The notes beneath the pieces are model-generated. The model saw only the letters and a list, made by a program, of their open reading frames with translations, ran no database searches and was not told where the DNA came from. From assembly GCA_039806955.1 (NCBI GenBank), contig JBDHQI010000005.1, forward strand, positions 39,118 through 103,117: a stretch of DNA of 64,000 nucleotides, written 5' to 3'. A program made the translations under genes and the position numbers. Positions 5,645-44,836 of this stretch are shown here, piece by piece; within the stretch, counting starts at the first letter, position 1; the number at the start of each line of letters is the position of its first letter. The stretch comes from Verrucomicrobiota bacterium (GTDB lineage Bacteria; Verrucomicrobiota; Verrucomicrobiia; Limisphaerales; JADLHS01).

Positions 5645-5705
5645 TCGACATCCTCCTTGATGTTGAAACTTGAATTTTTATCCAGCATGAATGTAAATTC
5701 CCGGC

Positions 5706-5936
5706 ATGAGTTCAGTCGTCGAGATCGAGCAGGCCATTGCCAAACTTTCCGCTCAGGAGTTTGTCGAGTTGGAGCGCTGGTTCGACGCCGAGCGAAATCG
5801 CAAGTGGGATCGCCAGATCGAGGCAGACGCGCAAAACGGCAAATTGCGCGACGCTTATGAGCGGTTGCAGTCAGAAAACCAAGGCCAGCCCGTCGTTCCG
5901 CTCGATGATTTCCTCGACGACAAAAAGCTTTCGTGA
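5706..5936 (+). CDS. Type II antitoxin-like small protein (partner of ParE-like toxin)
   Basis: 76 aa. IEQAIAKLSAQEFVELERWFDAERNRKWDRQIEADAQNGKL resembles the common antitoxin class found upstream of ParE-like toxins. It overlaps the next ORF by 32 nt. Confidence 0.6.
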   Translation: MSSVVEIEQAIAKLSAQEFVELERWFDAERNRKWDRQIEADAQNGKLRDAYERLQSENQGQPVVPLDDFLDDKKLS

Positions 5937-6159
5937 CCGGTTCAGGAAACTTCCTTCTGAAATCCAGCAAATCGCCCGGAAGAATTTCCGGCTCTGGCTG
6001 CGTAATCGGGCGCATCCTTCCCTGCATTTCAAAAAAGTCGGCGAATTTTGGTCCGCCCGTGTCGGCAGCAACCATCGTGCTCTGGCCCTGTGGCATGGCG
6101 ACAAGGTGGAATGGTTCTGGATTGGTTCTCATGATGAGTATGAGAATTTGATCGGGTAG
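5905..6159 (+). CDS. ParE-like / RelE-superfamily toxin
   Basis: 84 aa counted from the internal ATG at 5905. FRDRFRKLPSEIQQIARKNFRLWLRNRAHPSLHFKKVGEFWSARVGSNHRALALWHGDKVEWFWIGSHDEYENL follows the ParE-like toxin pattern (KLP..IQ, HPSL.FKKV, YRAL, W.WIG.H.EY). The exact start is uncertain. Confidence 0.6.
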   Translation: MISSTTKSFRDRFRKLPSEIQQIARKNFRLWLRNRAHPSLHFKKVGEFWSARVGSNHRALALWHGDKVEWFWIGSHDEYENLIG

Positions 6160-6602
6160 TTCATAAGCACGAGGTGTCGGTAGCGAATGATGATGGTGGG
6201 CATGGCGGTTAATCGGTGGCGTTTGCTCACCGCTGGTGAGGAAATGGGTTCGGGGTCAAATTGGCCAACCGGCGGTTGACCAATCGGGAGGAGCGCGCCA
6301 GTCGCCAATTCGCCAACCGCCGGTTGGCGAATCTGCGGGTAAAGCCGATACAAAGTGCGGCAATCCTTCAATGTGCTGACACCCAACCCGGTGATTTCGC
6401 GACTCTTGAGGTCATCCGCCACCCGTTTCAGTAATCCTGCGCCGTATTTCGCCCGGTCGTCTCCCGCCTGCTCAAACTCGACGAGATAAGCGCCGACAAG
6501 CCAGTTGCGGAGAATGAGGTGACGGTTGACCGCTCCGGCAGCACCAGCTTGGGCTTGCCTGTGCGCATCGCTGATGGCGGAAAGGAGACCGGGGTAATTC
6601 AT
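6129..6602 (-). pseudogene. Truncated DUF1016 (YhcG-like) gene with only the N-terminal helical domain
   Basis: The start at 6602 forms an ATGA overlap with the cas3 stop. LILRNWLVGAYLVEFEQAGDDRAKYGAGLLKRVADDLKSREITGLGVSTLKDCRTLYRLYPQI matches the DUF1016 N-domain. The expected C-terminal PD-(D/E)XK nuclease half is missing, and the ORF runs into the convergent toxin gene. Confidence 0.55.
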
Positions 6603-9046
6603 TGCCGGGAAGCGCGCGCGTCGGCGGCGCGTAGCAGGGTTTCCAGATAGGCAAGGCGGAATGGGCCAAGCCGGTCGCGCAGAGCAATGGCGCGGGCCAG
6701 CCATGATGGGCCGTGTTTGCCTTCGCCCATTTGCATGAAGCTGAGGTCGAGAGCGATTTCCGGGGTGGTCAACTCGGGCAGCGAAACCGGTTTCAAAATT
6801 TCACCATCCCAAATGCCGCGCGCAAAAAGTCTGGCTGGATTCTTCTCATCGCCTTTCTCATCCGGCAACGAGCGAATCGAGAGCCGGACTTTGCCGTGAT
6901 GCGCGGCGATGAGATAAGCGACAAGGTCGCGCTCCGGCGCATCAAGTGGGGCAGCCAGCAGCCACGCGAGCGCGGAGGCGAGTTCGTGGCGAATGCTTCG
7001 ATAAGGTTTATCGGCACTGTATCGTTTGGGTGGGTTTTCCGACTTCGCATAAAGACCCTTGGCGTCAGGGGGCTGATGCTGCCCATCGCGCAAAGCTTTT
7101 TGAAATTCCTCATGCGCTTTGCCGATGTCGTGCCACAACGCGGCGGTGCGGAGTGCGTCAACAAATTCGGCTTCACTCGCGAGCATTGCCAGTGCGGTCG
7201 TCTGTTCGACGACATATTTGGTATGCTCGGCGATGGTTTGCCATGAGCGACAAAATGTGTCTGGCTCATCGTCGTAGGCTTCGGGTGTGCCAGTTTCGGG
7301 AGGGTGCGGCTTGGGCTTGTCCTTCGGATCACCAGTCCAGCCGAGGTCATCGCAATAGCCGCCGCTGGATGTTGCCAAAAGATAAACTCCGCCGGGGCGG
7401 GGTGCTTTGGCGGCTTCCCACTCTTTGCCGAGCGGATTCCAGCGCCACGCGCGCGTAGTCTTTTTATCGAAGAACTTCATGGCATCGCCGATGGAAACGC
7501 GGCAAAGTTCGATGCGTTGCGGAGGCTTGTCGTTGCGAGTTGGCGCAGCATCGCCAGCGATGTCGCGCCAGAAGAATTGCACATCGCTATCGTCGCCATC
7601 GCGGATGTAACGGGAGATGTCGAGGTCTTGACCGCAGATGTCCGGCGTGGTGTCGAACAAATCCACGAGGTCGCGGCGGCGGATGACGGGACGGATAACC
7701 GGTGTTTCCTGAACGGTCACGTTCTTCAACGAGCGCGGGCTGACATCCGTAAGTTTCAACAGTTCCGCGCGGGCCTTGTCGAATTCATCCTTCGCGTAAG
7801 GCCGCGACAGTTCGTCTTTCTCGTCCTTGGGCTGGAGGTCCACCCACAACACCTCGGCATCAGGAATGTCCGCGCGGCGATTGCAACGCCCCATGCGTTG
7901 GACGAGCGATGACCACGGCGCGAGTTCGGTGATGAGCAACCGCGCGGAAACATCCACGCCCGCTTCGACGGCTTGCGTGGCGATGACAATGCGGTCGCCT
8001 GTGCCGAAAAGCAGCTTCGTATGCCGTTCGCGATCCACGGGCCGGAAGCGCGAATGAATGAGGGCGACTTTTCCCGGCGGGCAGAGCGGGTTTTTCCCCT
8101 TTGTCAGAGCTTCAAAGATTTCTCGCGCCCGTTTGACGCGATTCACGATGACGAGTGTCAGTGTGTCGGTCTTGTGGTGGTCCCTGACAAGTTTGGCAAG
8201 TTGCCCCGCGTAGTCTTTTGTTCCCGAACCAAGCGTGAGTGGGGTAGGCGAAAGCTTCTTGGATGCGGTGATAAGGTCATGCGGCCTGCCACTGGATTGC
8301 TCGGCCTCGCTCAACTTTTCAGTATGCGCCGGCTTTTGATGATCCACCGTTTCCAGACGCTTTTCTTCAAGCGTTGCGCTCATCCACCACGTCGGGCACG
8401 CGCCGAAAGTCGGCATTTTTCCATTGTGTCGGAAACCGTCCAGTTGCGCGCTGGTTTCGACGCCCACGCCCATCAACTGCGTTTCGTCCATCACCCACAA
8501 ACAATCATTATTAAGCAGACCAAAGTGCATCGGCCAGCGGTAGCGACTCATGCCGTAGCCGCGATTGAGAGCGCGACTGAGAAGCATGTCTTGCGTGCCG
8601 ATGAGGATGGCGTTTTCCTCGGGATAGATGTCCCATTCGCCTGGACCTTCGCCGCCCATGAGAATATGAACGCCAACTTTCCCTCTGCGTGTTTCAGGCT
8701 TTTCGTCCCAGAGCAGACCATGAGCATCGAGCCATCTGCGAACTTCCTTTTCCGTCTGTTCCACCAGCGTCCGCATTGGTAAACAGTACACGAGCCGGCG
8801 CGGCCACGTCTCCGATTGCAGGTGGATGCGATTCCATAACCACGCCAGCACCACGGCAGCGGTTTTACCGAGGCCGGTCGGGATGTTGATGAGCTGTGAT
8901 TGGCAGGCCGCGCCAGCTTGCAGAGTATCCGGCCGGGCCGGGTCTGTCTGCGGGCCACAGGCCAAGCGGTATTGGTAACCGTAGGGCCGATGCTCGGTCC
9001 CCAGGCATTGCCGGAAAAATTGTTCGTACGTCATTTGGTTCTCCAC
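6599..9046 (-). CDS. cas3: Cas3 helicase with C-terminal HD nuclease (subtype I-G architecture)
   Basis: 815 aa. SF2 helicase motifs are present: PTGLGKTAA, VMDETQL and QRMGRCNRR. They are followed by C-terminal HD motifs WHDIGKAHEEF and LIAAHHGKV. Confidence 0.9.
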   Translation of the reverse strand: MENQMTYEQFFRQCLGTEHRPYGYQYRLACGPQTDPARPDTLQAGAACQSQLINIPTGLGKTAAVVLAWLWNRIHLQSETWPRRLVYCLPMRTLVEQTEKEVRRWLDAHGLLWDEKPETRRGKVGVHILMGGEGPGEWDIYPEENAILIGTQDMLLSRALNRGYGMSRYRWPMHFGLLNNDCLWVMDETQLMGVGVETSAQLDGFRHNGKMPTFGACPTWWMSATLEEKRLETVDHQKPAHTEKLSEAEQSSGRPHDLITASKKLSPTPLTLGSGTKDYAGQLAKLVRDHHKTDTLTLVIVNRVKRAREIFEALTKGKNPLCPPGKVALIHSRFRPVDRERHTKLLFGTGDRIVIATQAVEAGVDVSARLLITELAPWSSLVQRMGRCNRRADIPDAEVLWVDLQPKDEKDELSRPYAKDEFDKARAELLKLTDVSPRSLKNVTVQETPVIRPVIRRRDLVDLFDTTPDICGQDLDISRYIRDGDDSDVQFFWRDIAGDAAPTRNDKPPQRIELCRVSIGDAMKFFDKKTTRAWRWNPLGKEWEAAKAPRPGGVYLLATSSGGYCDDLGWTGDPKDKPKPHPPETGTPEAYDDEPDTFCRSWQTIAEHTKYVVEQTTALAMLASEAEFVDALRTAALWHDIGKAHEEFQKALRDGQHQPPDAKGLYAKSENPPKRYSADKPYRSIRHELASALAWLLAAPLDAPERDLVAYLIAAHHGKVRLSIRSLPDEKGDEKNPARLFARGIWDGEILKPVSLPELTTPEIALDLSFMQMGEGKHGPSWLARAIALRDRLGPFRLAYLETLLRAADARASRQ

Positions 9047-31573: not shown

Positions 31574-32479
31574 TCAGTGGGCGAGATCACCCCACGTGGC
31601 GCGGATCATTTCGGGCGAGGCGCCGCCCCGTCGCAAGGTTTGCAAGCTCAACGCAGCGTGTCGTTTGGCCAGTCGTTGGCCATTGTCATCCAGCATCAGT
31701 TTGCAGTGATAAAAGCGCGGCGCCACGAGTTTGAGCGCGCGGTACAGCAGGAGTTGCCGCGCGGTGGACTTCAATAAATCCGCGCCGCGCACGACTTCGG
31801 TGATTTGCATGGCCGCGTCGTCCACAACGCACGCGAGCTGATACGCCGGCACATTGTCCGGTCGCCAAACGACGAAATCTCCGAAGTCTTTTCCGGCGAC
31901 AAATTTTTGCGGACCAAGATTTCCATCGTCGAAACGGATTGCCTCGCCATCGGGAACGCGGAAGCGAATCGAAGACCGGCGCGGAATGGGGGCGTTCGTT
32001 CCAGTCGCCGTCCGGGTGTCTTCGAAGTTCGGCCCCGGAAGGTTCTTGTCGCGACAAAGGCCGGGATAGATCGGTTCATCATCGTCTTCCGGATGTGGGG
32101 CCTGAACGGCCGCCGCAATGTCCTGGCGCGAGCAATTGCAACCATAGACGAAGCCGCCCGCGCGTAGCCGTTCGAGCGCCTCGCGATAGTGGTCCCATCG
32201 CTGGCTTTGGGCGTAAGGCGCCCACCGTCCGCCGCAATCTGGTCCTTCGCTCCACGCGAACCCGAACCAACGTAAGTCGTCGTACATCGCAGCGATAAAT
32301 TCCGGTTTGCAGCGTAATTGATCCAGATCGTCATTGCGCAAAATCAACGTCCCGCCCGCCACGCGTGCCCGCTCTTGCGCGATCCAGAAAGTGCGCGCAT
32401 GACCGAGATGCAGGTGGCCGGTGGGTGACGGCGCAATCCGTCCGCGATAGGAAACCCGGGAAACGGAAGGCCCAGTCAT
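31574..32479 (-). CDS. gluQ: tRNA glutamyl-Q(34) synthetase (GluQRS)
   Basis: 301 aa. It has the class I motif PSPTGHLHLGHARTF and the KMSKS-like RLAKRH. It has GluRS catalytic-domain length and no anticodon-binding domain. Confidence 0.85.
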   Translation of the reverse strand: MTGPSVSRVSYRGRIAPSPTGHLHLGHARTFWIAQERARVAGGTLILRNDDLDQLRCKPEFIAAMYDDLRWFGFAWSEGPDCGGRWAPYAQSQRWDHYREALERLRAGGFVYGCNCSRQDIAAAVQAPHPEDDDEPIYPGLCRDKNLPGPNFEDTRTATGTNAPIPRRSSIRFRVPDGEAIRFDDGNLGPQKFVAGKDFGDFVVWRPDNVPAYQLACVVDDAAMQITEVVRGADLLKSTARQLLLYRALKLVAPRFYHCKLMLDDNGQRLAKRHAALSLQTLRRGGASPEMIRATWGDLAH

Positions 32480-36690: not shown

Positions 36691-37417
36691 TTAAAACCAG
36701 AAATTCCTTGTTGCCCGCCGGACCGAGGAGTGGCGATGGCGTCATCCCCACCCAGTTCCACCCCGATTGCGTTGCGATAAAAGTTTTTATTTCCTCGATC
36801 ACCCGTTCGTGTACTTCCGGATCGGTAATGACACCCGCCCCACGATCCACCTCCGCTTTTCCGGCCTCGAACTGCGGTTTGACCAGCGCGATGAGTTTAC
36901 CGCCGGAGCGCAGCAAAGCAACGGCAGGCGGCAGAATTTTTTGCAGCGAAATGAACGAACAATCAATCACCACCAGGTCCACCGGTGTAAACGGCGGCGG
37001 CATGGCCGCCGGAGTGAGGTGGCGCGCATTGGTTTTTTCCATCACCACCACGCGCGGGTCCTGGCGCAATTTCCACGCGAGTTGCCCGTGCCCCACATCC
37101 ACCGCATACACCAACGCCGCGCCCGCCTGTAACAGGCAATCCGTGAAGCCTCCCGTCGAAGCGCCGAGATCAATCGCACGGCAACCCTGCGCGGACACCC
37201 GAAAATGCTCCAACGCATGCGCCAGCTTGAATCCGCCGCGACTGACAAATGGCTCCCGCGCCGCCAAAGCCAGTTCCTCCTTGGCGCCGACTGCATCGCT
37301 GGGCTTGCGCACCGGCTGACCGTTGACCAACACCTGCCCCGCCATCACCAGGCGTTTGGCCTGTTCGCGACTCGCGCAAAGGCCGCGCTCCACCAGCGCT
37401 TGATCCACCCGCATCAT
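36674..37417 (-). CDS. tlyA: TlyA family rRNA 2'-O-methyltransferase
   Basis: It has an S4-like N-terminus (RVDQALVERGLCASREQAKRLVMAGQVLVNG) and the SAM-binding block IDLGASTGGFTDCLLQ. Confidence 0.8.
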   Translation of the reverse strand: MMRVDQALVERGLCASREQAKRLVMAGQVLVNGQPVRKPSDAVGAKEELALAAREPFVSRGGFKLAHALEHFRVSAQGCRAIDLGASTGGFTDCLLQAGAALVYAVDVGHGQLAWKLRQDPRVVVMEKTNARHLTPAAMPPPFTPVDLVVIDCSFISLQKILPPAVALLRSGGKLIALVKPQFEAGKAEVDRGAGVITDPEVHERVIEEIKTFIATQSGWNWVGMTPSPLLGPAGNKEFLVLIEKNN

Positions 37418-37852
37418 GTCGGCAGGTTAAACTTCCGCCGCGAGAAAATCACGCTCGAACCGGACCGCCTTTGACAATCTGTTGATGTAATCCCATTTGT
37501 CATCAATTGGCGCTTATGTTGCAATTAACGGGTCAGCCCATCCCGCATATTTGGAATGAGCCGTCTGTCCCGTGCGGGCCGGGCGGAAGAATTCCGCGTT
37601 GCAAACTCTATTCCCGATGTGCTTCAACAACATCTGAGCGGCGGGTGCAGCCAATAAACGTGCCTTTGACGGGCCGATTAAATTGAGATTTCAAAGCGGT
37701 TCACGGACGGCTATTTTCCCCGTCATGTCTGTGACTTTGATAGACAAATATTTTTCAGCCATCGCGCCGGGCGTCAAGGCCGACGTCGCACCAGCGGAAA
37801 TGGTCATCGCATTTTTGCGATGGAATTACTCTTTAGCCTAGATTGAATTTTT

Positions 37853-38827
37853 ATGTCCGACGAGAATCAACAGCCGCAACCGAACCCCGAGCGCAAAACG
37901 CTCGACGACCGCGCAAAGATGACCGAGTTGGAACGCCTCCGCCACTCGTGCGCGCACGTCATGGCCACCGCCATCCTGCGCCTGTGGCCGGACGCGCAAT
38001 TCGCCTACGGCCCGCCCGTCGAGAACGGTTTTTACTACGACCTCGAATGTTCCCATCGCATCTCGCCCGAGGATTTTGAAAAAATCGAGGCCGAGATGAA
38101 AAAGGAGATCAAGTCCAACAACGTCTTCCAGAAGATCGAAGTGCCGCGCGAACAAGCTATCAAGGACGCGCAAAGCGGTCGGCTCGGCGGTCTGACGGAA
38201 CGCCCCGGCCATGCGAGCAAATTCAAGCTCGACCTCATCGCGCAGATTCCCGAAGGCGAACCGATTTCATATTTCAAGAACGGCGATTTCATTGACCTCT
38301 GCGCCGGGCCGCACGTGATGCGCACGGGCAACATCGGCGCGTTCAAGCTCACGAGCGTCGCCAGCGCGTATTACAAGGGCGACGAAAAAAATCCGCAGTT
38401 GCAACGCATTTACGGCACGGCGTTCAAGAACAAGACGGCGATGGACGAGTATTTCAAAATGCTCGAGGAAGCGAAGCGCCGCGACCATCGCAAGATCGGC
38501 GCGGAGATGGGGCTGTTCGCGATTGATACCGAATACGTCGGGCCGGGCATGCCGCTGTGGCTGCCCAAGGGCACGGTGCTGGTGGAGGAACTGGAAAAGC
38601 TGGCCAAGGAAACGGAATTCGCCGCCGGCTACGTCCGCGTCCGCACGCCGCATCTGGCCAAGGAGAAGATGTATAAAACCTCCGGCCATCTGCCGTATTA
38701 CGCCGAGAGCATGTTTCCGAAAATGGAAATGGACGAACACCGCGAAGCTCGCGCGAAACTCCAGTCCCGCATCGCCGAACTGGAAAAACAACTGGCCGAT
38801 TACGCGAAGAAAAAATCCGGTGGATGA
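37853..38827 (+). CDS. thrS: Threonyl-tRNA synthetase N-terminal fragment (editing-domain part, motif 1) with a 31-aa cassette-encoded tail
   Basis: RHSCAHVMATAILRLWP, RDHRKIG, VRVRTPHL (motif 1 Pro) and TSGHLPYYAESMFP are colinear with bacterial ThrRS up to the loop before the zinc-site Cys. After M293 (ATG 38729) the ORF reads DEHREARAKLQSRIAELEKQLADYAKKKSGG and then stops. There is no TGS domain: the HSCAH motif starts at residue 31. Confidence 0.9.
   Translation: MSDENQQPQPNPERKTLDDRAKMTELERLRHSCAHVMATAILRLWPDAQFAYGPPVENGFYYDLECSHRISPEDFEKIEAEMKKEIKSNNVFQKIEVPREQAIKDAQSGRLGGLTERPGHASKFKLDLIAQIPEGEPISYFKNGDFIDLCAGPHVMRTGNIGAFKLTSVASAYYKGDEKNPQLQRIYGTAFKNKTAMDEYFKMLEEAKRRDHRKIGAEMGLFAIDTEYVGPGMPLWLPKGTVLVEELEKLAKETEFAAGYVRVRTPHLAKEKMYKTSGHLPYYAESMFPKMEMDEHREARAKLQSRIAELEKQLADYAKKKSGG
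38724..38821 (+). repeat. Core TGGAAATG plus R module, copy 1 (in frame with thrS)
   Basis: This is the 8-bp core followed by a 90-nt segment. The segment recurs at 39417 (6 mismatches in 90 nt by hand alignment) and at 40646 (5 mismatches in about 80 nt). Confidence 0.9.
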
Positions 38828-38900
38828 GGTTTAACCGCGAAACACACCGCAGAAATGCCCTTTGCACGACTGCATTCGCCAAGTTATACTTTGCAGCAAG

Positions 38901-39113
38901 ATGAAAACGGTCGAAGCCATCATTGAAACCAATGGCGAGGTGCATTTGGTTGAACCGATCCGCGTGCAATCGCCGCGCCGCGCGCTGGTCACGATACTCG
39001 AAGAAGCTCCGACCGTGCATGATGCCGCGCTGTTGAGCGAGGCCGCGCTCGCCGAGGACTGGAATTGCGCCGAGGAGGACGCTGCATGGGCACATTTACA
39101 GCCAGCCAAGTAG
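38901..39113 (+). CDS. Cassette A antitoxin-like protein (MazE-position partner)
   Basis: 70 aa from ATG 38901. MKTVEAIIETNGEVHLVEPIRVQSPRRALVTILEE...ALLSEAALAEDWNCAEEDAAWAHLQ resembles small antitoxins found upstream of MazF/PemK toxins. It overlaps the toxin start. Confidence 0.55.
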   Translation: MKTVEAIIETNGEVHLVEPIRVQSPRRALVTILEEAPTVHDAALLSEAALAEDWNCAEEDAAWAHLQPAK

Positions 39114-39420
39114 TCATCGTCCACTTTCCCTTCTCCGATCTCACGGCCTCCAAACTCCGTCCGGCAGTTGTGCTGGCCGAAGTGGACGCGGCGATTGGAT
39201 TCTCTGCCAAATCACCAGCAAATCCTACGGTGATGGCAAGGCCATCACGCTCGACACTGCCGACTTCGCCCACGGCTCACTTCGGATCACCAGCTATGCG
39301 CGTCCCGGAAAACTGTTCACCGCGCACCACAGCCTCGTCGCAAATCAGGTTGGTGAATTGCAGCCTGCAAAATTTGCTGCCATCCGCGACGCTGTGGTGC
39401 GGATGATTCAAAAAAGTTGA
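39086..39420 (+). pseudogene. Cassette A MazF/PemK-family toxin interrupted by a frameshift near 39190
   Basis: Frame 1 reads MGTFTASQVVIVHFPFSDLTASKLRPAVVLAEVDA. After an apparent 1-nt loss in GACGCGGCGATTGG, the family-typical continuation lies in another frame: GDWILCQITSKSYGDGKAITLDTADFAHGSLRITSYARPGKLFTAHHSLVANQVGELQPAKFAAIRDAVVRMIQKS-stop. Confidence 0.7.
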
Positions 39421-39514
39421 AATGGACGAACACCGCGAAGCCCGCGCGAAACACCAGCCCCGCATCGCCGAACTGGAAAAACAACTGGTCGATTACGCGA
39501 AGAAAAAGTCCGGC
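39417..39514 (+). repeat. Core TTGAAATG plus R module, copy 2
   Basis: See copy 1. It encodes MDEHREARAKHQPRIAELEKQLVDYAKKKSG... from its own ATG at 39422. Confidence 0.9.
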
Positions 39515-39564
39515 GAGGAAAGTTCAACCGCGAAATACGCCAAATACGCGAAAGCATTTCAGTC

Positions 39565-40638
39565 ATGCCCAAACCGAAAATCACCCCGCCGCCACCCGTT
39601 GCGCCTGAAACCTGGCAGGCATTGCTCGCCGCCACTGCCGAGTTCGCCGCGCTCCAACCGTGGGAATTCGCCTACGACAGCGATCCCGTTGGCTTGGTTG
39701 ATCCCGTCACTGGCGAGACGCGCATCGGCCATGTTCTCGGCAACGCGGGCGAGGTGTTCGCCGCCGTGTTTTACCGGCGCGCAGGACTGCGCTGGATTCT
39801 CGCCATGCTCGGCGATTCGCCCGATCCCGAGGATTTGAATAACGCCGATGGCATGGACTGCCTCAAAGTCGAACTCGTTCCCAAGCGCGAACTGTGGAAG
39901 GAAGACCTTGCCCTACTCAAGGCCGCCGCGTTCAAGCCCGCTGGAAAGGGACTCGTCTGGCCGCAATTCCGTTCCTCCGCTCCCGGTTGGCATCCGTGGC
40001 ATATCAATCAGGCCGAGGCAGATCAACTGCTCGCCGATCTGCCGCGTCTCACGGCGTTCTACCGGTTGTTCAAGCAACACCCCGACCTCTACGACGACCG
40101 CGACGCGACAGAGATTCCGTTTCTGCCCGTGCCGCTGGCCGCCCGCCCGCTCACGATTGCCGACCTCGACTGGCATCCGCTCCTGTTGCCGCCGCTCACC
40201 GGCTTCGAGCCGTTTCAAGTTCCCGGTGCTGATCTCGAAAAACTCCGCGCGCTCAAGCGCGATCCCGGCCTCGAATGTGAGTTCGACTGCACGATGATGC
40301 CCGGCGGTTCGTTTTACGAGAATGGACGCCCTTGCTTTGGCCGGTTCAGCCTGCTGGTGGAAAAACAACGTGGTCTCGTCATCGGCATGGACGTGGCCAG
40401 TGGCGCGCTCACGCCCGGCGAAGCCGCCGGACGCACTCTGGTCAAGGCGCTCCTCATGGGCAAAACCCTGCCGGAAAAAATCTTCATCGGCGGGTTGCGC
40501 CTGCAACCCGTCCTACAACCGCTGTGCGACGAATTGCAAATCCAGCTTCGGCCCGCGTCCTCGCTGCCTGCCTTGGAAGGAGCCATTGAATCGTTGAGCC
40601 AACAGTTGATGACAACAGGTGGGCCGGGACGACTCTGA
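39565..40638 (+). CDS. Cassette B hypothetical protein (357 aa)
   Basis: This is a long ORF co-oriented with thrS, at genome-typical GC. I recognise no catalytic or family motif with confidence. Confidence 0.55.
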   Translation: MPKPKITPPPPVAPETWQALLAATAEFAALQPWEFAYDSDPVGLVDPVTGETRIGHVLGNAGEVFAAVFYRRAGLRWILAMLGDSPDPEDLNNADGMDCLKVELVPKRELWKEDLALLKAAAFKPAGKGLVWPQFRSSAPGWHPWHINQAEADQLLADLPRLTAFYRLFKQHPDLYDDRDATEIPFLPVPLAARPLTIADLDWHPLLLPPLTGFEPFQVPGADLEKLRALKRDPGLECEFDCTMMPGGSFYENGRPCFGRFSLLVEKQRGLVIGMDVASGALTPGEAAGRTLVKALLMGKTLPEKIFIGGLRLQPVLQPLCDELQIQLRPASSLPALEGAIESLSQQLMTTGGPGRL

Positions 40639-40645
40639 CGGAAAA

Positions 40646-40736
40646 TCGAAATGGACGAACACCACGAAGTCCGCGCGAAACTCCAGTCCCGCATCGCCGA
40701 ACTGGAAAAGCAACTGGCCGATTACGCGAAAAAATC
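40646..40736 (+). repeat. Core TCGAAATG plus R module, copy 3
   Basis: See copy 1. It encodes a free-standing 30-aa ORF, MDEHHEVRAKLQSRIAELEKQLADYAKKSK (40651..40743). Confidence 0.9.
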
Positions 40737-40900
40737 AAAGTAGGACAGCGCGTCCCGCCTGTCTGGATGAAGGGGAAATGGCCGCAACAGAACGCAAGGC
40801 GCGCAAAGAATTTAACCGCGAAAGACGCGGAGACGCAGAGTGAAAACTGCCATTTATCTCTGTCTTTGCTTCACGACCTGAAAAAGCTTAGACTTCCGGC

Positions 40901-41113
40901 ATGAAAACGAGTCTGCCCATCGAAGTTGACCGGGAAATCATGAGCGGCGCGCCGGTGTTCCGGGGCACGCGCGTGCCGGTGCAATCGCTGTTTGAATATC
41001 TGGAGGACAATCTGTCGTTGGAGGAATTTCTGGACTGCTTTCCCACGGTGAAGCGCGAGGACGCCATCGCGGTGCTGGAACACAGCAAGAGCGAATTGCT
41101 CGTTCATGCGTGA
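40901..41113 (+). CDS. Cassette C DUF433 domain protein (antitoxin-like)
   Basis: 70 aa. IMSGAPVFRGTRVPVQSLFEYLEDNLSLEEFLDCFPTVKREDAIAVLE is the DUF433 pattern. It has a GTGA overlap with the next gene. Confidence 0.7.
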   Translation: MKTSLPIEVDREIMSGAPVFRGTRVPVQSLFEYLEDNLSLEEFLDCFPTVKREDAIAVLEHSKSELLVHA

Positions 41114-41424
41114 AAATTCTTTTCGACGAATGTATGCCGCAACCGTTGCGCCGCCTTCTGGCGGATTTTGAGATTTCCACAGCGCAGGAAATGGGCTGGG
41201 GTCGCGTGAAGAATGGCGAATTGCTGAAACGCGCGGAGGGTGTGTTCGATGCTTTTCTGACTTCGGATCAGCAGTTGAAGTATCAGCAAAATTTGAAAGG
41301 CAGAAAACTCGCGATCCTCGTGCTCTCGACAAACCGCTGGCCAAAGGTCAAAGCCAAAACGCAGGAAATCATCGCGGCGATTCAATCGTTGAAACCCGGA
41401 GATTACATCGAGTTGGCTCTGTGA
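41110..41424 (+). CDS. Cassette C DUF5615 / PIN-like (Mut7-C-like) protein (toxin-like)
   Basis: 104 aa. MKILFDECMPQPLRRLLADFEISTAQEMGW...GELLKRAEGVFDAFLTSDQQL fits the DUF5615 family, which is commonly paired with DUF433. Confidence 0.65.
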   Translation: MKILFDECMPQPLRRLLADFEISTAQEMGWGRVKNGELLKRAEGVFDAFLTSDQQLKYQQNLKGRKLAILVLSTNRWPKVKAKTQEIIAAIQSLKPGDYIELAL

Positions 41425-41428
41425 ATTT

Positions 41429-41436
41429 TTGAAATG
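41429..41436 (+). repeat. Fourth copy of the 8-bp core (TTGAAATG); its ATG is the ThrRS C-fragment start codon
   Basis: TNGAAATG occurs at 38724, 39417, 40646 and 41429, at exactly the four junctions of the cassette array. Confidence 0.85.
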
Positions 41437-42522
41437 AACCCTGAAGAATTTGTTGCCATTGAACAGGCCGTCAAGGCCAGCGCCGCGCCGACGGAGATTG
41501 TCGCCGCATTCAACGAGTTGGCCGCGTTGCGCGCGCAGTTGAACAAGCTCGGCGAGGCGGAGAGTTATTACCTCAAAGCGATGAACTGCCCGCATCATCA
41601 CCGCATTTTTGCGGCCGAGCCGCGCAGTTATCGCGACCTGCCGTTGCGCCTCGCGGAATACGGCTGCTGCTATCGCTACGAGCAGTCGGGCGAGTTGTTC
41701 GGCCTCATGCGCGTGCGTTCGCTCAACATGAACGACGCCCACATCTATTGCACCGAGGACCAGTTCGCGTCCGAGTTCAAGGCCGTGAACGACATGTATC
41801 TGAAATATTTCAAGACGTTCGGCCTCGAAAAATATCAGATGCGCTTCAGCACGTCGTCGCCGGAGGGCCTGGGCAAAAAATACGTCAACGAGCCCGGGCT
41901 GTGGAAGAAAACCGAGGACATGGTGCGTCGCGTGTTGCAGGAAAGCGGCATCAATTACATCGAGGTCGCGAACGAGGCGGCGTTCTACGGCCCGAAGATT
42001 GACGTGCAGGTGTGGAGCGCCATCGGCCGCGAATTCACCATCGCCACGAACCAGGTGGACTTCGCCGTGCCGTCGCGCTTCGGCCTGACCTATCGCGACA
42101 AGGACAATTCCAACAAGACGCCGTTGTGCATCCATCGCGCGCCGCTCGGCACGCACGAGCGGTTCATCGGCTTCCTCATCGAGCATTATGCCGGCAACTT
42201 CCCGCTCTGGCTCGCGCCCGACCAGGTGCGCGCCATCACGCTCAACGACGACGCGGCGCTGATTGCTTACGCCCAGCCCATCGTGAACGAACTACGCGCG
42301 AACATGGTGCGCGTGGACACGGATTTCAGCGCCACGCCGTTCAAGGCGAAGATCGCCGACGCGGAAAAGCTCCGCGTCCACACCATGCTCATCATCGGCG
42401 GCAAGGACATGGAAGCAGGCAAAGTTTCCGTGCGCCTCCACCACGGCGGCCCGCAAGGCGCAAAGCCGAAGGCGGAAGTTCTTGCGAAGATTCTGGCGGA
42501 CATCAAAGAGCGGAAGGCGTGA
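41434..42522 (+). CDS. thrS: Threonyl-tRNA synthetase C-terminal fragment (zinc site, motifs 2 and 3, anticodon-binding domain)
   Basis: 362 aa. A 47-aa helical-looking extension (NPEEFVAIEQAVKASAAPTEIVAAFNELAALRAQLNKLGEAES) comes first. It is followed by YYLKAMNCPHHH, motif 2 (RLAEYGCCYRYEQSGELFGLMRVRSLNMNDAH), motif 3 (GTHERFIGFLIEHYAG) and the anticodon-binding domain. Confidence 0.9.
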   Translation: MNPEEFVAIEQAVKASAAPTEIVAAFNELAALRAQLNKLGEAESYYLKAMNCPHHHRIFAAEPRSYRDLPLRLAEYGCCYRYEQSGELFGLMRVRSLNMNDAHIYCTEDQFASEFKAVNDMYLKYFKTFGLEKYQMRFSTSSPEGLGKKYVNEPGLWKKTEDMVRRVLQESGINYIEVANEAAFYGPKIDVQVWSAIGREFTIATNQVDFAVPSRFGLTYRDKDNSNKTPLCIHRAPLGTHERFIGFLIEHYAGNFPLWLAPDQVRAITLNDDAALIAYAQPIVNELRANMVRVDTDFSATPFKAKIADAEKLRVHTMLIIGGKDMEAGKVSVRLHHGGPQGAKPKAEVLAKILADIKERKA

Positions 42523-44438
42523 ACTCGAATAGCATCGTGCAGCAGCCGTCATCAAATGATTCCCGAAAAGACCGGAGCGAACCGACAACTTCCAGAACTT
42601 TGCTCAAAGGATTTCGCGCAGACCGCAAGCACCACGGAAAGCTTTTGTTCGTTGATGAAAAGTTGAAGGTGTTTCCGACCGGCAAATGGTCTGAACTCTA
42701 CGCAAGCCCGCGCCGAGGTTTCCTCGTCGAAGTTGACCAGAAGGGTCAGTTCAAGCCCCTCAACATTTACAAAGACCCGCGCAGTCAAATCTTGCCGAGA
42801 ACGCTCTCCCGTTGGCTCAAAGAAGATTGGGAGATTCAAAAGGAGATAAAGAAGCGACGCAGAGAAGACAAAAATGTTCGGGCGATTCAACCGAACTCGA
42901 TTGTCGCGACCAGCACGGCGGCCCTTCCGAAAAGGGTTCTAGTCTTGGACATTGAAACGTCCGGCAAGCTGGACGAGCCGCCCAATACAGGAAGAATACT
43001 GCTCGTGGGAATCAAGGAGTTCAATCTGGTCAGTGGCGGTTATCACCCGTCGCCATACGAGCCGTTTGAGGGCAAACCTGATTGGGTAGCACTTCAGCAA
43101 CGCTTGAGCCAGCCGACGGATTTGATTTTGGGACACAACATATTCGGGTTCGATTACTATTTTCTCGAAACAATCATTCAGATTGAGCTGATCGCCGCAA
43201 AGACGGTTGATTTGTTCCTTTGGTTGTGCGCGTGCGTTGGATTTCACCGCGGCCTTGGGCTAAACGATCTTTGCCGACTCAACATCGGGGTGTGGAAGGC
43301 TCGATTTGGAAAGTCGCTGAAAGAGCTTTCCGCGCTACCCGACAGAACACATCTTCACCGTTACAACGAGCGCGACTTGGATTTGACTTTTCGGCTCTGG
43401 CTGCACGCTGTCGCTCAAAAAACAATCCAGACTCATGGCGCTGGAAATTTGAAGGCTACCAGCAGCGACCTCGACTATCTTTTTGGCCGCAAGCCAATTG
43501 TCGGACATCAGGCTTGGATGGAAAAGCGGCGGGCTTGGAACTCAAAGCTGCCTTCACCTCTACATCGTGAAGCTGTAATTCAGAGACTTGGCGACCACGA
43601 CGCAGAGAAAGTGGTGTGGCCGAGCTACAGCGTAATCGTCTGCTCGTGTTGCCGCCATGCGACGGTGTTCCAAGTTTTCGAATTATTTCAGCGAGACGTC
43701 GAGGATGGTGCGGACTTCCCTGGGCACGCTTTGATTAAACGGGAACTCAAGACCTACAGGCTTCGATGTGCGTGCGGCGAAAGCATCAAAGCCCGGAGTT
43801 CCACTCCTCCAATCTTGATTGGCAATTTCGCGATCAAATCTCCCCGGAAGCGAACCGATGGCTATTGGTCACCAATGCTGCACACTGGAGGACAGTATCT
43901 TCTCTCGCCATTTGAAAAGACATGGGAGCAGTTATTCCGAGAATTCAAACTCGGACGGAGGAGTTCGTCATCAACGTCATTCAAACGGAAGCCCACACCA
44001 GAGGAGGCTGCACTGTTGAGTGCGGCAGTCGGCGAAGAATTCAAACGCAGCATCACTTTCAACGAAAAGGGCACGGCCTATCTTTTGCTCGACGGCGGTG
44101 AGCCTTCAGACTGCTACATGAAGGAATACATGGCGGCTGGATTGGACGACGTTCTGGAAGAACACTGGAAAGGCAACGCTTCGTGGATTAGCCGCACGGC
44201 CCTCGACAGCGATGCTCACTGCCGGACATGCGGGGCTCGGTTGACCATTCACGACATCCCGCTTGTTCACCCGATTTTCCAAACTCCAATTTGCCAGCCA
44301 TGTATTCGCCTCGGACGGCATCGCTACTTTCATTGCGGCGAGTGGCAACCGAAGTTGAAGCGACGACGCGCAAAGTTTCTCGATGAATTAGAACCAACAA
44401 CCTCATCGCGGAATTTAACCGCGTTTTACATGCGTTGA
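42519..44438 (+). CDS. YprB-like DEDD 3'-5' exonuclease domain protein with C-terminal Cys-rich (zinc-ribbon-like) region
   Basis: Exo motifs are VLVLDIETSG, LILGHNIFGFDYYFL and HRYNERDLDLTFRLW. C-terminal Cys clusters are CSCCRH...CACG and HCRTCG...CQPCIRLGRHRYFHCG. The ORF-track start at 42012 overlaps thrS out of frame. The first plausible start is the GTG at 42519 (GTGA overlap with the thrS stop), and TTG/GTG starts up to about 42670 are also possible. GC is clearly lower than the surroundings. Confidence 0.6.
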   Translation: MNSNSIVQQPSSNDSRKDRSEPTTSRTLLKGFRADRKHHGKLLFVDEKLKVFPTGKWSELYASPRRGFLVEVDQKGQFKPLNIYKDPRSQILPRTLSRWLKEDWEIQKEIKKRRREDKNVRAIQPNSIVATSTAALPKRVLVLDIETSGKLDEPPNTGRILLVGIKEFNLVSGGYHPSPYEPFEGKPDWVALQQRLSQPTDLILGHNIFGFDYYFLETIIQIELIAAKTVDLFLWLCACVGFHRGLGLNDLCRLNIGVWKARFGKSLKELSALPDRTHLHRYNERDLDLTFRLWLHAVAQKTIQTHGAGNLKATSSDLDYLFGRKPIVGHQAWMEKRRAWNSKLPSPLHREAVIQRLGDHDAEKVVWPSYSVIVCSCCRHATVFQVFELFQRDVEDGADFPGHALIKRELKTYRLRCACGESIKARSSTPPILIGNFAIKSPRKRTDGYWSPMLHTGGQYLLSPFEKTWEQLFREFKLGRRSSSSTSFKRKPTPEEAALLSAAVGEEFKRSITFNEKGTAYLLLDGGEPSDCYMKEYMAAGLDDVLEEHWKGNASWISRTALDSDAHCRTCGARLTIHDIPLVHPIFQTPICQPCIRLGRHRYFHCGEWQPKLKRRRAKFLDELEPTTSSRNLTAFYMR

Positions 44439-44477
44439 ATTTGAAAAGTTTTACCCAAGTTGAACCAAGTTGCCATC

Positions 44478-44836
44478 GGAAGACCGAGGACATGGTGCGC
44501 CGCGTGTTGCAGGAGAGCGGCATCAATTACGTCGAGGTCGCGAAGTGTTAGCACACGGCCACCAGGCGGCGTCCTACGGGCCGAAGATTGACGTGCAGGT
44601 GTGGAGCGCCATCGGCCGCGAATTCACCATCGCCACGAACCAGGTGGACTTCGCCGTGCTGTCGCGCTTCGGCCTGACCTACCGCGACAAGGACAACTCC
44701 AACAAGACGCCGTTGTGCATCCATCGCGCGCCGCTCGGCACTCACGAGCGGTTCATTGGCGGCAATCAGTTACATTACGCGGGCAACTTCCCGCTCTGGC
44801 TCGCGCCGGATCAGGTGCGCGTCATCACGCTCAGCG
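44478..44836 (+). pseudogene. Decayed duplicate of an internal thrS segment (equivalent to 41903..42250)
   Basis: It aligns by hand to the functional copy: ...ACCGAGGACATGGTGCG...GGCCCGAAGATTGACGTGCAGGTGTGGAGCGCCATCGGCCGCGAATTCACC.... It carries an insertion of about 17 nt that creates a stop and a frameshift after ...INYVEVA, substitutions (AVPSRF to AVLSRF, FIGFLIEHY to FIGGNQLHY), and truncation at both ends. Confidence 0.8.

What the first reader, a model, noticed from the sequence alone, without database searches (positions are those of the whole stretch)
38724..41436. thrS is split inside its catalytic domain by three tandem gene cassettes, each starting with a conserved ~90-bp module and ending in the same 8-bp core
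**Split position.**
- The ThrRS ORF stops 32 codons after ...YAESMFPKMEM (ATG 38729).
- It resumes 2705 bp later at ATG 41434 (MNPEEF...YYLKAMNCPHHH).
- The break therefore lies between class II motif 1 and the zinc-site/motif 2 region.

**Structure of the intervening DNA.** It is strictly modular: [TNGAAATG][R ~90 nt][tail][cargo], repeated three times, then a fourth TNGAAATG.
- Cores: 38724 TGGAAATG, 39417 TTGAAATG, 40646 TCGAAATG, 41429 TTGAAATG.
- Unit lengths: 693, 1229 and 783 bp.
- The R copies differ from one another (6 mismatches in 90 nt, and 5 in about 80 nt). They are therefore not a trivial assembly duplication.
- Junctions 0 and 2 also share GAAAAT(G/C)GAAATG.

**Excision would restore the gene.** Deleting between any two cores rejoins the gene in frame as ...KMEM-NPEEF..., giving a 654-aa ThrRS.

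**Interpretation.**
- The cargo is what integron cassette arrays typically carry: two TA pairs and one orphan protein.
- No integrase, attC-type palindrome or transposase is visible in the window.
- I know of no described element class that builds cassette arrays inside an aminoacyl-tRNA synthetase ORF.
- Alternative model: R is native to thrS, and each cassette carries a copy as a homology arm, in the style of polymorphic-toxin orphan modules. This fits less well, because no R copy abuts the C-fragment.
Basis: partly seen in the sequence, partly recalled or inferred. Interest (0 to 1): 0.92.

Follow-up and report, generated by a model that had tools for sequence, protein, structure and literature searches.

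The report
Split thrS with displaced gene-end copies
The threonyl-tRNA synthetase gene here is naturally split into two genes, and the "cassettes" between the halves are accessory genes (mostly toxin-antitoxin pairs), each dragging a left-over copy of the first half's 3' end, not a new integron-like mobile element.

Summary
thrS is broken between class II motif 1 and motif 2, and three ~100-130-nt repeats (R) head three gene blocks. An independent assembly is 100% identical across two junctions.

The proposed reading, a new cassette element with an 8-bp core whose excision restores thrS, is not supported.
- R is the native, protein-coding 3' end plus 3' UTR of the N-terminal thrS gene. It encodes helix 1 of a lineage-specific helical insert.
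- The split form is conserved, under purifying selection, in dozens of Verrucomicrobiota MAG and metagenome loci. In some loci the halves are unlinked.
- R2 and R3 are displaced "orphan" copies of that gene end. R2 is still joined to the gene that follows the native end in other genomes.
- Similar arrays occur elsewhere (L088, L103, L119, L121, L092, L117, L108). Their orphans start at 12 different codons, from 251 to about 292.
- TNGAAATG is the Met-Glu-Met codons, or the mazF stop, or the C-gene start. It is not enriched in the window.
- No integrase was found and R shows no attC-like folding.

Best model: homology-anchored recombination plus illegitimate joins at a split essential gene. This resembles CDI/Rhs orphan modules and Neisseria minimal mobile elements. 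The split ThrRS itself appears undescribed.

The parts
37680..37814 (+). Displaced copy of the C-gene promoter/leader region plus the first 30 codons of a C-fragment head (MSVTLIDKYFSAIAPGVKADVAPAEMVIAF). It lies just upstream of the N-terminal gene.
   Evidence: blastn matches the region immediately upstream of, and into, the C-terminal thrS gene of L010, L003, L017, L095, L101 and L114. tblastn with MSAILKDEEF... hits 37725-37814.
37853..38827 (+). thrS-N gene (324 aa): editing-site/tRNA_SAD part, start of the catalytic domain with motif 1, then helix R and its own stop.
   Evidence: TIGR00418 positions 1-256 and Pfam tRNA_SAD. dN/dS is 0.07-0.17 against 19 other split loci.
38729..38848 (+). 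R1: the native 3' end of thrS-N (MDEHREARAKLQSRIAELEKQLADYAKKKSGG*) plus the 3' UTR motif TTTAACCGCGAAA.
   Evidence: Reference copy of repeat family D1. The same peptide ends the N gene in all split loci. The UTR motif is also native in L087, L089 and L118.
38901..39113 (+). 70-aa antitoxin-like gene (cargo of unit 1).
   Evidence: ORF. Co-linear with the mazF pairs of L103 and L109 at 91% aa identity. No Pfam hit.
39086..39420 (+). PemK/MazF toxin pseudogene, with a 1-nt deletion near 39184. Its stop TGA (39418-39420) lies inside the second 'core'.
   Evidence: Two reading frames.
39417..39541 (+). R2: orphan copy of the thrS-N 3' end plus UTR. It has lost its stop codon and carries L->H, S->P and A->V changes.
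   Evidence: 88% identical to R1. Window 39419-40608 is co-linear with the native N-R-UTR-DUF7309 arrangement of L007 and L118.
39565..40638 (+). DUF7309+DUF6930 gene (357 aa), cargo of unit 2 and a recurrent thrS neighbour.
   Evidence: Pfam. It lies right after native N-R in L001, L007 and L118, and right after the end of thrS in L010 and L040.
40639..40828 (+). R3: orphan copy of the thrS-N 3' end. It begins with diverged PKMEM codons, encodes MDEHHEVRAKLQSRIAELEKQLADYAKKSK*, then has a REP-like hairpin (40743-40763), a spacer and the UTR motif (40811-40828).
   Evidence: The tail matches the native tails of L001 and L007. The hairpin occurs once in the window.
40901..41424 (+). DUF433 (40901-41113) and DUF5615 (41110-41424) toxin-antitoxin-like pair, cargo of unit 3.
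   Evidence: Pfam. The block DUF433-DUF5615-thrS-C is co-linear with L012, L114 and L027.
41434..42522 (+). thrS-C gene (362 aa). It has its own ATG and a two-helix head (residues 1-40), then the zinc site, motifs 2 and 3, and the anticodon-binding domain.
   Evidence: TIGR00418 positions 254-562, Pfam tRNA-synt_2b and HGTP_anticodon. dN/dS is 0.13-0.32.
42519..44438 (+). 639-aa gene of unknown function. Its GTG start overlaps the thrS-C stop. It is cargo inserted behind thrS.
   Evidence: ORF. No Pfam hit. No homologue in any fetched locus.
44462..44836 (+). Displaced, frameshifted internal fragment of thrS (C-fragment residues 153-271, 88% identical).
   Evidence: tblastn and blastn. Comparable displaced thrS 3' fragments occur in 14 of 98 loci.

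Best explanation
**(1) The gene is genuinely split (shown).**
- thrS in this verrucomicrobial lineage is two genes.
- The break lies in the loop between helix 1 (R, at the C-terminus of the N-terminal protein) and helices 2-3 (at the N-terminus of the C-terminal protein).
- These helices belong to a lineage-specific helical insert in the motif 1-motif 2 loop of the catalytic domain.

**(2) How the enzyme works (inferred).**
- The two polypeptides reassemble non-covalently through this three-helix unit to give an active ThrRS.

**(3) What the 'R modules' are (shown).**
- They are not element ends. R1 is the native 3' end and 3' UTR of the thrS-N gene.
- R2 and R3 are displaced ('orphan') copies of such a 3' end.
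- R2 is still attached to the gene that lies downstream of the native end in other genomes.
- R3 heads the block that adjoins thrS-C in other genomes.

**(4) How the array was built (inferred).**
- Incoming or sister DNA carrying 'thrS-N 3' end + neighbours' recombines homologously within the conserved thrS sequence on one side.
- On the other side it joins illegitimately, or by a few bases of microhomology. This is homology-facilitated illegitimate recombination or unequal crossing-over.
- The new end takes over the gene and the resident end is pushed downstream with its cargo.
- Recombination between R copies can later delete units. Small deletions trim the orphans.
- No dedicated recombinase is involved.

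**(5) The same process acts elsewhere at this gene (shown).**
- It leaves orphan C-heads at the 5' end of thrS-C.
- It leaves displaced 3' fragments behind the 3' end of thrS.

**(6) Why this cargo (inferred).**
- The cargo is mostly toxin-antitoxin and defence genes. Such genes persist once acquired.
For: **The split is conserved and selected.**
- At least 34 non-redundant loci have an N gene ending in MDEHR..IAELEKQL..YAKK..*.
- dN/dS is 0.07-0.17 for the N gene, 0.13-0.32 for the C gene and 0.30 for native R.
- In L004 and L025 about 10 kb of unrelated genes follow N-R with no C gene in the locus. In L006 4.7 kb follow, up to the contig end. L127, L129 and L132 have a C gene with no N gene within about 6 kb.

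**R belongs to the protein.**
- R plus the C-head (~66 aa) is an insertion relative to TIGR00418 and to 1nyq.
- Intact orthologues (L043, L038, L009, L033, L044) align as an R-like helix, a linker and C-head-like helices.
- AlphaFold2 of N+C gives helices 297-322, 327-338 and 344-362. The 10-residue blocks over residues 291-370 average pLDDT 79-96, although the rest of the model is poor.

**The R copies are orphans.**
- Window 39419-40608 is co-linear with the native N-R-DUF7309 of L007 and L118.
- Window 38640-39421 is co-linear with an orphan unit of L103 that has an intact mazF.
- Window 40822-42518 is co-linear with L012, L114 and L027.
- The R tails are of different allelic types: R1 matches L003, R3 matches L001 and L007.
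- R2 has lost its stop codon.

**There is no fixed site.**
- Twelve distinct orphan boundaries start at codons 251, 261, 263, 264, 267, 274, 276, 288, ~290 and ~292 (three cases).
- The same mazF end (..AAAAGTTGA) is followed by an 86-nt arm in L103 and by AATGGAC in the window.

**Mirror-image and downstream orphans exist.**
- C-head orphans occur in the window (37680-37814), L017, L114 and L088.
- Displaced thrS 3' fragments occur in 14 of 98 loci, including genomes with an intact thrS.

**No recombinase was found.**
- None appears among 26 large housekeeping or unassigned ORFs of the window, plus the two thrS halves and five cargo genes.
- No integrase-like ORF was evident by eye in cargo stretches of other loci. 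Only 10 cargo ORFs from four of those loci were scanned against Pfam.

**The two halves have discordant histories.** Against L095, dS is 0.51 for N and 0.20 for C. This indicates recombination at the locus.

**Cargo elsewhere.** DarT plus a macro-domain protein (DarG-like), a PIN toxin, HicA, a DNA methylase next to an unassigned ORF, and DUF433/DUF5615.
Against: - Activity of the two-piece enzyme is not shown.
- No complete genome is available, so a second, intact thrS cannot be excluded. One MAG (JANOQV01) holds both a split N gene on a 3.3-kb contig (L005) and an intact thrS (L142). This may be a binning mixture.
- Five or six orphan boundaries cluster within 21 nt upstream of Met293 (window J1 and J2, L092/L121, L117, L088-6873), and four cluster at codons 261-267. 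This is more clustering than random joins would give and I cannot explain it fully. Possible causes are selection for short arms, the local direct repeats AAATGG-AAATGG and GTCCGC-GTCCGC, or secondary deletions.
- Split and intact states are interleaved on an N-gene tree, although that tree is poorly resolved. The history of the split therefore remains open: single origin with lateral spread, or repeated events.
- The recombination route is inferred from scars only. The candidates are transformation with illegitimate joining, unequal sister exchange, or single-crossover integration of R+cargo circles.
Confidence: 0.68

Rival explanations
1. A site-specific cassette system, integron-like. R acts as the recombination site, TNGAAATG is the crossover core, and the recombinase is encoded elsewhere in the genome.
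For: - The layout is modular, with tandem units and TA-type cargo.
- Several independent orphans begin within 21 nt of the same codon.
- Arrays recur in other genomes.
Against: - R is translated thrS sequence under purifying selection.
- Orphan boundaries differ by up to about 125 nt. Even the clustered ones are not at one nucleotide.
- R has no significant ssDNA structure.
- The core is not GTTRRRY and is not enriched in the window.
- The TTGAA at J1 is native to mazF.
- No tyrosine or serine recombinase or transposase was found in the ORFs tested.
- The fourth 'core' is the C gene's own start region, also present in L012, which has no orphans.
Confidence: 0.07
2. thrS here is a dead gene broken by insertions and segmental duplications. 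The cell lives on another thrS copy.
For: - The gene is interrupted.
- mazF is frameshifted, R2 has lost its stop, and a frameshifted thrS fragment lies at 44462-44836.
- One MAG holds both a split and an intact copy.
Against: - Both halves are intact ORFs with their own stop or start.
- They show dN/dS of 0.07-0.32 over dS of 0.2-1.3 against many split loci.
- The N gene's tail is conserved across at least 34 loci.
- The halves persist even when unlinked.
Confidence: 0.08
3. A programmed intervening element, of the skin or nifD-element type. The 2.7-kb insert is excised under some condition to rebuild a continuous thrS.
For: Core-to-core deletion would be in frame and would give 293+361 = 654 aa.
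Against: - No recombinase gene lies inside the insert.
- Intact relatives keep an R-like helix and a linker, never KMEM-NPEEF.
- The halves are more than 10 kb apart or unlinked in other genomes.
- The C gene has its own conserved upstream region and start codon.
Confidence: 0.03
4. R+cargo units move as circles. They are excised by R x R homologous recombination and re-inserted by a single crossover at any thrS-N 3' end. This is a recombinase-free but genuinely cassette-like traffic, rather than one-off illegitimate joins.
For: - Direct repeats of 90-190 nt flank every unit.
- The same units (mazF pair, DarT/macro pair, DUF7309) occur behind different R alleles in different genomes.
- The DarG-to-R junction is shared by L092 and L121.
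- The window's three R copies belong to one R subfamily although their tails differ. This is compatible with crossovers inside R.
Against: - No circles have been observed.
- The mazF-to-R junction differs between L103 and the window.
- The model still needs one founding illegitimate join per unit. That makes it an extension of the best explanation rather than a true alternative.
Confidence: 0.14

Closest known systems
Orphan cdiA-CT/cdiI and rhs-CT/rhsI modules downstream of CDI and Rhs toxin genes (PMC3150448, PMC3967940)
   Same: - A full-length gene is followed by tandem fragments that repeat its conserved 3'-proximal sequence.
- The fragments lack the 5' part of the gene.
- Each fragment is followed by its own small cargo genes.
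- The same modules are found as the 'main' end in one genome and as an orphan in another.
- Recombination between the conserved stretches can reload or delete modules.
   Different: - The parent gene is half of an essential housekeeping enzyme, not a polymorphic toxin.
- The repeated stretch is followed by a stop codon, not by a variable toxin domain.
- The cargo is unrelated to the parent gene (TA pairs, DUF proteins, RM and defence genes) rather than cognate immunity genes.
Minimal mobile elements of Neisseria, for example the pheS-pheT site (Saunders and Snyder 2002; Snyder 2007, as cited in PMC3082526)
   Same: [quoted passage not shown]
- There are no mobility genes.
- Incorporation is by homologous recombination.
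   Different: - Here the two flanks are the two halves of one gene.
- Acquisition often leaves duplicated flank fragments (orphans), which implies that one side joined illegitimately.
- Natural competence of these Verrucomicrobiota is unknown.
Naturally split aminoacyl-tRNA synthetases: Aquifex aeolicus LeuRS alpha/beta, Nanoarchaeum equitans AlaRS, crenarchaeal ThrRS-cat plus ThrRS-ed (from my own knowledge; not found in the paper library)
   Same: One synthetase is encoded by two genes whose products must associate.
   Different: - This is a bacterial class II ThrRS.
- It is cut inside the catalytic core between motif 1 and motif 2, within a lineage-specific helical insert.
- The archaeal ThrRS split separates whole domains (editing versus catalytic).
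- I found no description of this split.
Integron gene cassettes
   Same: - Tandem array of short gene units, with frequent TA cargo.
- A repeated ~100-nt element lies at unit boundaries.
   Different: - No IntI was found.
- The repeats are not attC-like palindromes.
- There is no GTTRRRY core.
- The repeat is coding sequence of the neighbouring gene.

Membership tests
Integron cassette array | An adjacent IntI-type tyrosine recombinase with attI and Pc | tested here: not met
   No recombinase domain was found in the locus genes or in 26 large ORFs of the window. Not every ORF of the window was scanned.
Integron cassette array | attC sites: imperfect palindromes that fold as single-stranded hairpins | tested here: not met
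   ssDNA folding of R1-R3 on both strands gave z-scores of -0.15 to +0.86. No inverted repeat lies within R.
Integron cassette array | An invariant crossover core (GTTRRRY) at every cassette boundary | tested here: not met
   The boundaries read TNGAAATG, a motif at chance frequency in the window. Orphan boundaries vary from codon 251 to about 292 across arrays.
Orphan-module array (CDI/Rhs type) | A full-length gene followed by tandem 5'-truncated copies of its conserved 3'-proximal region | tested here: met
   R2 and R3 in the window, and 2-4 copies in L088, L103, L119, L121, L092, L117 and L108.
Orphan-module array (CDI/Rhs type) | The same module is the main end in one genome and an orphan in another | tested here: met
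   R-DUF7309 is native in L007, L118 and L001 and an orphan in the window. The R-antitoxin-mazF unit is the native first unit in the window and an orphan in L103.
Orphan-module array (CDI/Rhs type) | A variable toxin domain after the conserved motif, followed by a cognate immunity gene; the parent is a secreted polymorphic toxin | tested here: not met
   R is followed by a stop codon. The parent is ThrRS. The cargo is unrelated to the parent gene.
Minimal mobile element site | Two conserved flanking genes with different whole-gene cassettes between them in different genomes | tested here: met
   Gap contents differ among L001, L002, L003, L010, L012, L017, L027, L065, L121 and others.
Minimal mobile element site | No associated mobility genes | tested here: met
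   No integrase or transposase was seen among the gap ORFs inspected. Only selected ORFs were scanned against Pfam.
Minimal mobile element site | Transfer by natural transformation and homologous recombination in the flanks | not testable with these tools
   Only indirect evidence is available: discordant dS of the N and C halves against the same genome, and mosaic R tails.
Split (two-gene) aminoacyl-tRNA synthetase | Two ORFs that together cover the whole enzyme without loss of catalytic motifs | tested here: met
   N covers TIGR00418 positions 1-256 and C covers 254-562.
Split (two-gene) aminoacyl-tRNA synthetase | Both parts maintained by purifying selection across species | tested here: met
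   dN/dS is 0.07-0.17 for N (19 loci) and 0.13-0.32 for C (16 loci).
Split (two-gene) aminoacyl-tRNA synthetase | The two products associate and aminoacylate tRNA-Thr | not testable with these tools
   Only a model is available: three confident helices at the junction (mean pLDDT of 10-residue blocks 79-96) in an otherwise poor AlphaFold2 model of the concatenated chain.
Developmentally excised intervening element (skin, nifD element) | The element encodes its own site-specific recombinase, and excision rebuilds the ORF | tested here: not met
   No recombinase lies in the 2.7-kb insert. The halves are unlinked in other genomes. Excision itself is not testable here.

The most novel reading that the evidence does not exclude
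The 3' end of the thrS-N gene works as a portable docking arm. R+cargo units loop out by R x R recombination. After transfer, they re-insert by a single homologous crossover at the thrS-N gene of any related species. This would be a recombinase-free functional analogue of an integron. It exploits a split essential gene as a universal, undeletable landing pad and is stabilised by addictive TA cargo. A further possibility is that orphan R copies retaining ATG (MDEH...*) are translated into helix-1 peptides that compete for the C-terminal subunit and tune ThrRS assembly.
Probability: 0.17. Interest if true: 0.85.

Novelty: new variant of a known kind. Interest (0 to 1): 0.6.

Why it matters
**For synthetase biology.**
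- This looks like an undescribed natural case of a class II catalytic core cut between motif 1 and motif 2.
- It has been kept for a long evolutionary time, and the likely glue is a lineage-specific three-helix insert.
- It is a ready-made natural experiment in protein-fragment complementation.
- It points to a surface loop of ThrRS that tolerates almost anything: inserts of 10-130 aa, an in-frame IS200-like domain, or a full split.

**For genome dynamics.**
- The 'orphan module' architecture is known from polymorphic toxin loci. Here it forms at an essential housekeeping gene with no recombinase and collects toxin-antitoxin and defence genes.
- This suggests that highly conserved genes can serve as homology anchors for cross-species gene acquisition in uncultured Verrucomicrobiota.
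- The duplicated gene-end scars may be a usable genomic signature of that process.

**For annotation.**
- Such loci will be called as thrS pseudogenes, or the MAGs scored as missing thrS.
- Short-read assemblies break at the R repeats.

Tried and rejected
- **Rfam on 37300-42700** (evalue mode): no hits. No riboswitch, T-box or known leader was found.
- **Promoter and terminator scans:** not above the shuffled expectation.
- **ssDNA folding of R as an attC-like site:** no signal.
- **The R tail as a genome-wide REP element:** the UTR motif occurs only at the three units in this window, and the hairpin occurs once. It is therefore part of the repeated gene end, not a dispersed repeat here.
- **Exact-protein look-ups** of the N gene, C gene and DUF5615 protein: not on record. 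Only the DUF7309 and antitoxin proteins led to L199. No population variants with deleted units were found.
- **Paper searches** for a split bacterial ThrRS: nothing relevant.
- **Single-origin test by an N-gene NJ tree:** unresolved. Split and intact states are interleaved.
- **Integrases between thrS and its displaced 3' fragments** in L001, L008, L030, L031, L036 and L040: none evident from the ORF lists, which were not scanned against Pfam.
- **The AlphaFold2 model** was too poor overall (pLDDT 57) for fold searches. Only the helical insert is confident.

Full report
**1. The observation**

The sequence is as described.
- The N-terminal thrS ORF runs 37853-38827. It reads ...YAESMFPKMEM (Met293 at 38729), then DEHREARAKLQSRIAELEKQLADYAKKKSGG and a stop.
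- The C-terminal ORF starts at ATG 41434 (MNPEEF...YYLKAMNCPHHH).
- Three direct repeats of about 129 nt start at 38720, 39413 and 40642. Ungapped identity to the first copy is 88% and 73%. The third copy carries an insertion.
- The four TNGAAATG octamers and the spacings 693, 1229 and 783 are correct.

- An antitoxin-like gene plus PemK/MazF.
- A DUF7309+DUF6930 protein.
- A DUF433+DUF5615 pair.
- The mazF gene carries a 1-nt deletion and is a pseudogene.

An independent Logan contig (L199, seen in 5 samples) is 100% identical over 38758-40701 and ends inside R1 and R3. Junctions 1 and 2 are therefore real, and the repeats break short-read assemblies.

**2. R is part of ThrRS**

Relative to canonical ThrRS, R and the C-head form an insertion.
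- Against the TIGR00418 profile, the N fragment covers positions 1-256. The C fragment matches only from its residue 41, at profile positions 254-562.
- Against S. aureus ThrRS (1nyq), the two pieces abut in the loop 'QLDETES'.
- So R (about 28 aa) and the first 40 residues of the C fragment together form a ~66-aa insertion in the motif 1-motif 2 loop.

Related Verrucomicrobiota show what this insert is.
- In 80 related loci, most thrS genes are intact. They carry a hypervariable, mostly helical insert of 10-130 aa at exactly this place.
- In a subset (L043, L038, L009, L033, L044) the insert aligns as an R-like helix, a 10-20-aa linker, and then helices like the C-fragment head.
- AlphaFold2 of the concatenated N+C chain is poor overall (pLDDT 57). 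It does give three helices, 297-322, 327-338 and 344-362, and the 10-residue blocks over residues 291-370 average pLDDT 79-96.
- The break therefore lies in the loop after helix 1.

**3. The split is a conserved gene arrangement**

- A whole set of loci has an N gene ending MDEHR(A/E)(D/A)R..(I/L)..RIAELEKQL..(Y/H)AKK...* and a separate C gene with its own start. These are L001-L007, L010, L012, L017, L025, L027, L065 and most of L082-L122.
- The gaps measured range from 0.7 to about 5.3 kb and hold unrelated genes.
- In L004 and L025 about 10 kb of housekeeping genes follow the N gene with no C gene in the locus. In L006 4.7 kb follow, up to the contig end. L127, L129 and L132 have a C gene with no N gene within about 6 kb upstream.
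- Between the window and other split loci, dN/dS is 0.07-0.17 for N and 0.13-0.32 for C, at dS of 0.2-1.3. Native R has dN/dS of 0.30 over 36 distinct sequences.
- I conclude (inference) that these bacteria make ThrRS from two polypeptides that associate through the helical insert.
- I found no paper describing this.

**4. What the extra R copies are**

Each unit matches a native arrangement, or a unit, found elsewhere.
- Unit 2 (39419-40608: R2, its 3' UTR and the DUF7309 gene) is co-linear over its full length with the native arrangement N-R-UTR-DUF7309 of L007 and L118. L001 matches over R and the gene but not the spacer between them.
- Unit 1, from codon 263 of the N gene through mazF (38640-39421), is co-linear with an orphan unit in L103, where mazF is intact. 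The same TA pair also sits far from thrS in L109.
- Most of unit 3 (DUF433-DUF5615-thrS-C, 40822-42518) is co-linear with L012. L114 and L027 match from the DUF433 start (about 40898).

The R tails are of different allelic types.
- R1 matches the L003 type (KKKSGG*, TTTAACCG...).
- R3 matches the L001 and L007 type (K-x-K* followed by the hairpin GGACAGCGCGTCCCGCCTGTC).
- R2 has lost its stop codon and carries helix-breaking changes.

So R2 and R3 are displaced copies of the 3' end of a thrS-N allele. R2 remains joined to the gene that follows that end in other genomes, and R3 heads the block that adjoins thrS-C.

**5. There is no recombination core**

Multi-R arrays are not unique to this window.
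- L088 has four R copies and L103 has three. L119, L121, L092, L117 and L108 have two each.
- Their orphans carry very different lengths of upstream thrS-N coding sequence. Twelve distinct boundaries start at codons 251, 261, 263, 264, 267, 274, 276, 288, ~290 and ~292 (three cases).
- The same mazF end (...AAAAGTTGA) is followed by an 86-nt arm in L103 and directly by AATGGAC in the window.

The octamer itself carries no signal.
- The 'TTGAA' of the second core is native to mazF, even in L109.
- The fourth core is the C gene's own start region, identical in L012, which has no orphans.
- TNGAAATG occurs 14 times in the window against 12.1 expected.

Other integron features are absent.
- R shows no ssDNA folding signal.
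- No recombinase was found in the locus or in 26 other large ORFs of the window.

**6. The same scars at the other ends of the gene**

- Window 37680-37814, just upstream of thrS-N, is a degenerate copy of the conserved upstream region plus the first 30 codons of a C gene of the MSAILKDEEF type.
- Orphan C-heads also occur in L017 and L114. In L088 a C-head is fused directly to an orphan N arm.
- Downstream of thrS-C, a 639-aa gene of unknown function is followed by a frameshifted thrS fragment covering C residues 153-271 (44462-44836, 88% identical).
- Displaced thrS 3' fragments with varied 5' limits occur in 14 of 98 loci, including genomes with an intact thrS. No integrase-like ORF was evident by eye between them.
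- The N and C halves have discordant divergence against the same genome. Against L095, dS is 0.51 for N and 0.20 for C.

**7. Mechanism (inferred)**

These scars fit homologous recombination anchored in the conserved thrS sequence on one side, with an illegitimate or microhomology join on the other side.
- The routes that fit are homology-facilitated illegitimate recombination after DNA uptake, or unequal exchange between sister chromosomes.
- The incoming gene end takes over and the resident end is pushed downstream with its neighbours.
- Later R x R recombination and small deletions prune the array. J1 in the window can be derived from an L103-like junction by a deletion between GAA microhomologies.
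- Single-crossover insertion of looped-out R+cargo circles is a compatible refinement.
- Cargo across loci is rich in toxin-antitoxin and defence genes: mazF, DUF433/DUF5615, DarT with a macro-domain protein, PIN, HicA and a DNA methylase. This would favour retention.

Three things remain unexplained.
- Orphan boundaries cluster near Met293 and near codons 261-267.
- Split and intact alleles are scattered on the N-gene tree.
- It is unknown whether any of these genomes also has an intact thrS. One MAG carries both forms, on different contigs (L005 and L142).

**8. Comparison with known systems and verdict**

- The architecture works like CDI/Rhs orphan-module arrays (PMC3150448, PMC3967940). 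It is not a member of that family, because the parent is a housekeeping enzyme and no variable toxin domain follows the repeat.
- The site behaves like a Neisseria minimal mobile element (PMC3082526), with the two halves of one gene as the flanks.
- It fails every tested defining feature of integrons and of programmed intervening elements.
- What remains of interest is the apparently undescribed split ThrRS, the hypervariable and insertion-tolerant loop, and orphan arrays at an essential gene.

Noticed in passing
L059:10826-12535, L074:10793-12526, also L064: Intact thrS genes carry an in-frame IS200-like Y1 transposase (RAYT-type) domain, PF01797. It is inserted in the same motif 1-motif 2 loop and is preceded by REP-like sequence translated as ...SAGVPPAVSGVAPET...
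   Followed up: partly
L001-L198 (thrS loop between SMFP.M.. and YYLKAMNCPHHH): ThrRS proteins that are 80-86% identical overall have completely unrelated inserts of 10 to about 130 residues at this loop. It is a hypervariable region inside the catalytic domain across Verrucomicrobiota.
   Followed up: partly
window 42519-44836: A 639-aa gene has no Pfam hit and no homologue in any fetched locus. Its GTG start overlaps the thrS-C stop. It is followed by a frameshifted copy of thrS codons 153-271 of the C part. Similar displaced thrS 3' fragments occur in 14 of 98 loci, also behind intact thrS genes.
   Followed up: partly
window 37680-37814: A copy of the conserved upstream region and first 30 codons of a C-terminal thrS gene lies directly upstream of the N-terminal gene. 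It may now drive or co-regulate thrS-N. Among the loci fetched this arrangement occurs only in the window.
   Followed up: partly
L001:10960-10990, L007:10965-10995, window 40739-40763: In some alleles the stop codon of thrS-N (TAG) is part of a REP-like hairpin, GTAGGACAGCGCGTCCCGCCTGTCC. This hints that a REP/RAYT-type insertion could have created the split. Not tested.
   Followed up: no
L010:11274-12317, L040:12125-13168 versus L001, L007, L118 and window 39565-40638: The DUF7309+DUF6930 gene is a recurrent thrS neighbour. It sits after the end of whole thrS or thrS-C in some genomes and after thrS-N in others. This implies rearrangement of the C part relative to this gene.
   Followed up: partly
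L005 (JANOQV010000001.1) and L142 (JANOQV010000210.1): One MAG contains both a split thrS-N gene, on a 3.3-kb contig, and an intact thrS at the end of a 71-kb contig. Either there are two thrS forms in one genome, or two populations were binned together.
   Followed up: no
window 592-9043 (minus strand): A Cas3 helicase-nuclease gene (6599-9043) lies next to two large ORFs with no Pfam hit (3119-5641 and 592-2175). This may be an unusual CRISPR-Cas or defence locus.
   Followed up: no
window 31574-32476 (minus strand): A 300-aa protein consists only of a class I Glu/Gln-tRNA synthetase catalytic domain. It resembles glutamyl-Q tRNA(Asp) synthetase.
   Followed up: no
window 37853-38740 and 41434-42519 versus L095, L089 and L082: The N and C halves show discordant divergence from the same genome. 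Against L095, dS is 0.51 for N and 0.20 for C. Against L082, aa identity is 75% for N and 89% for C. The two halves have different histories.
   Followed up: partly
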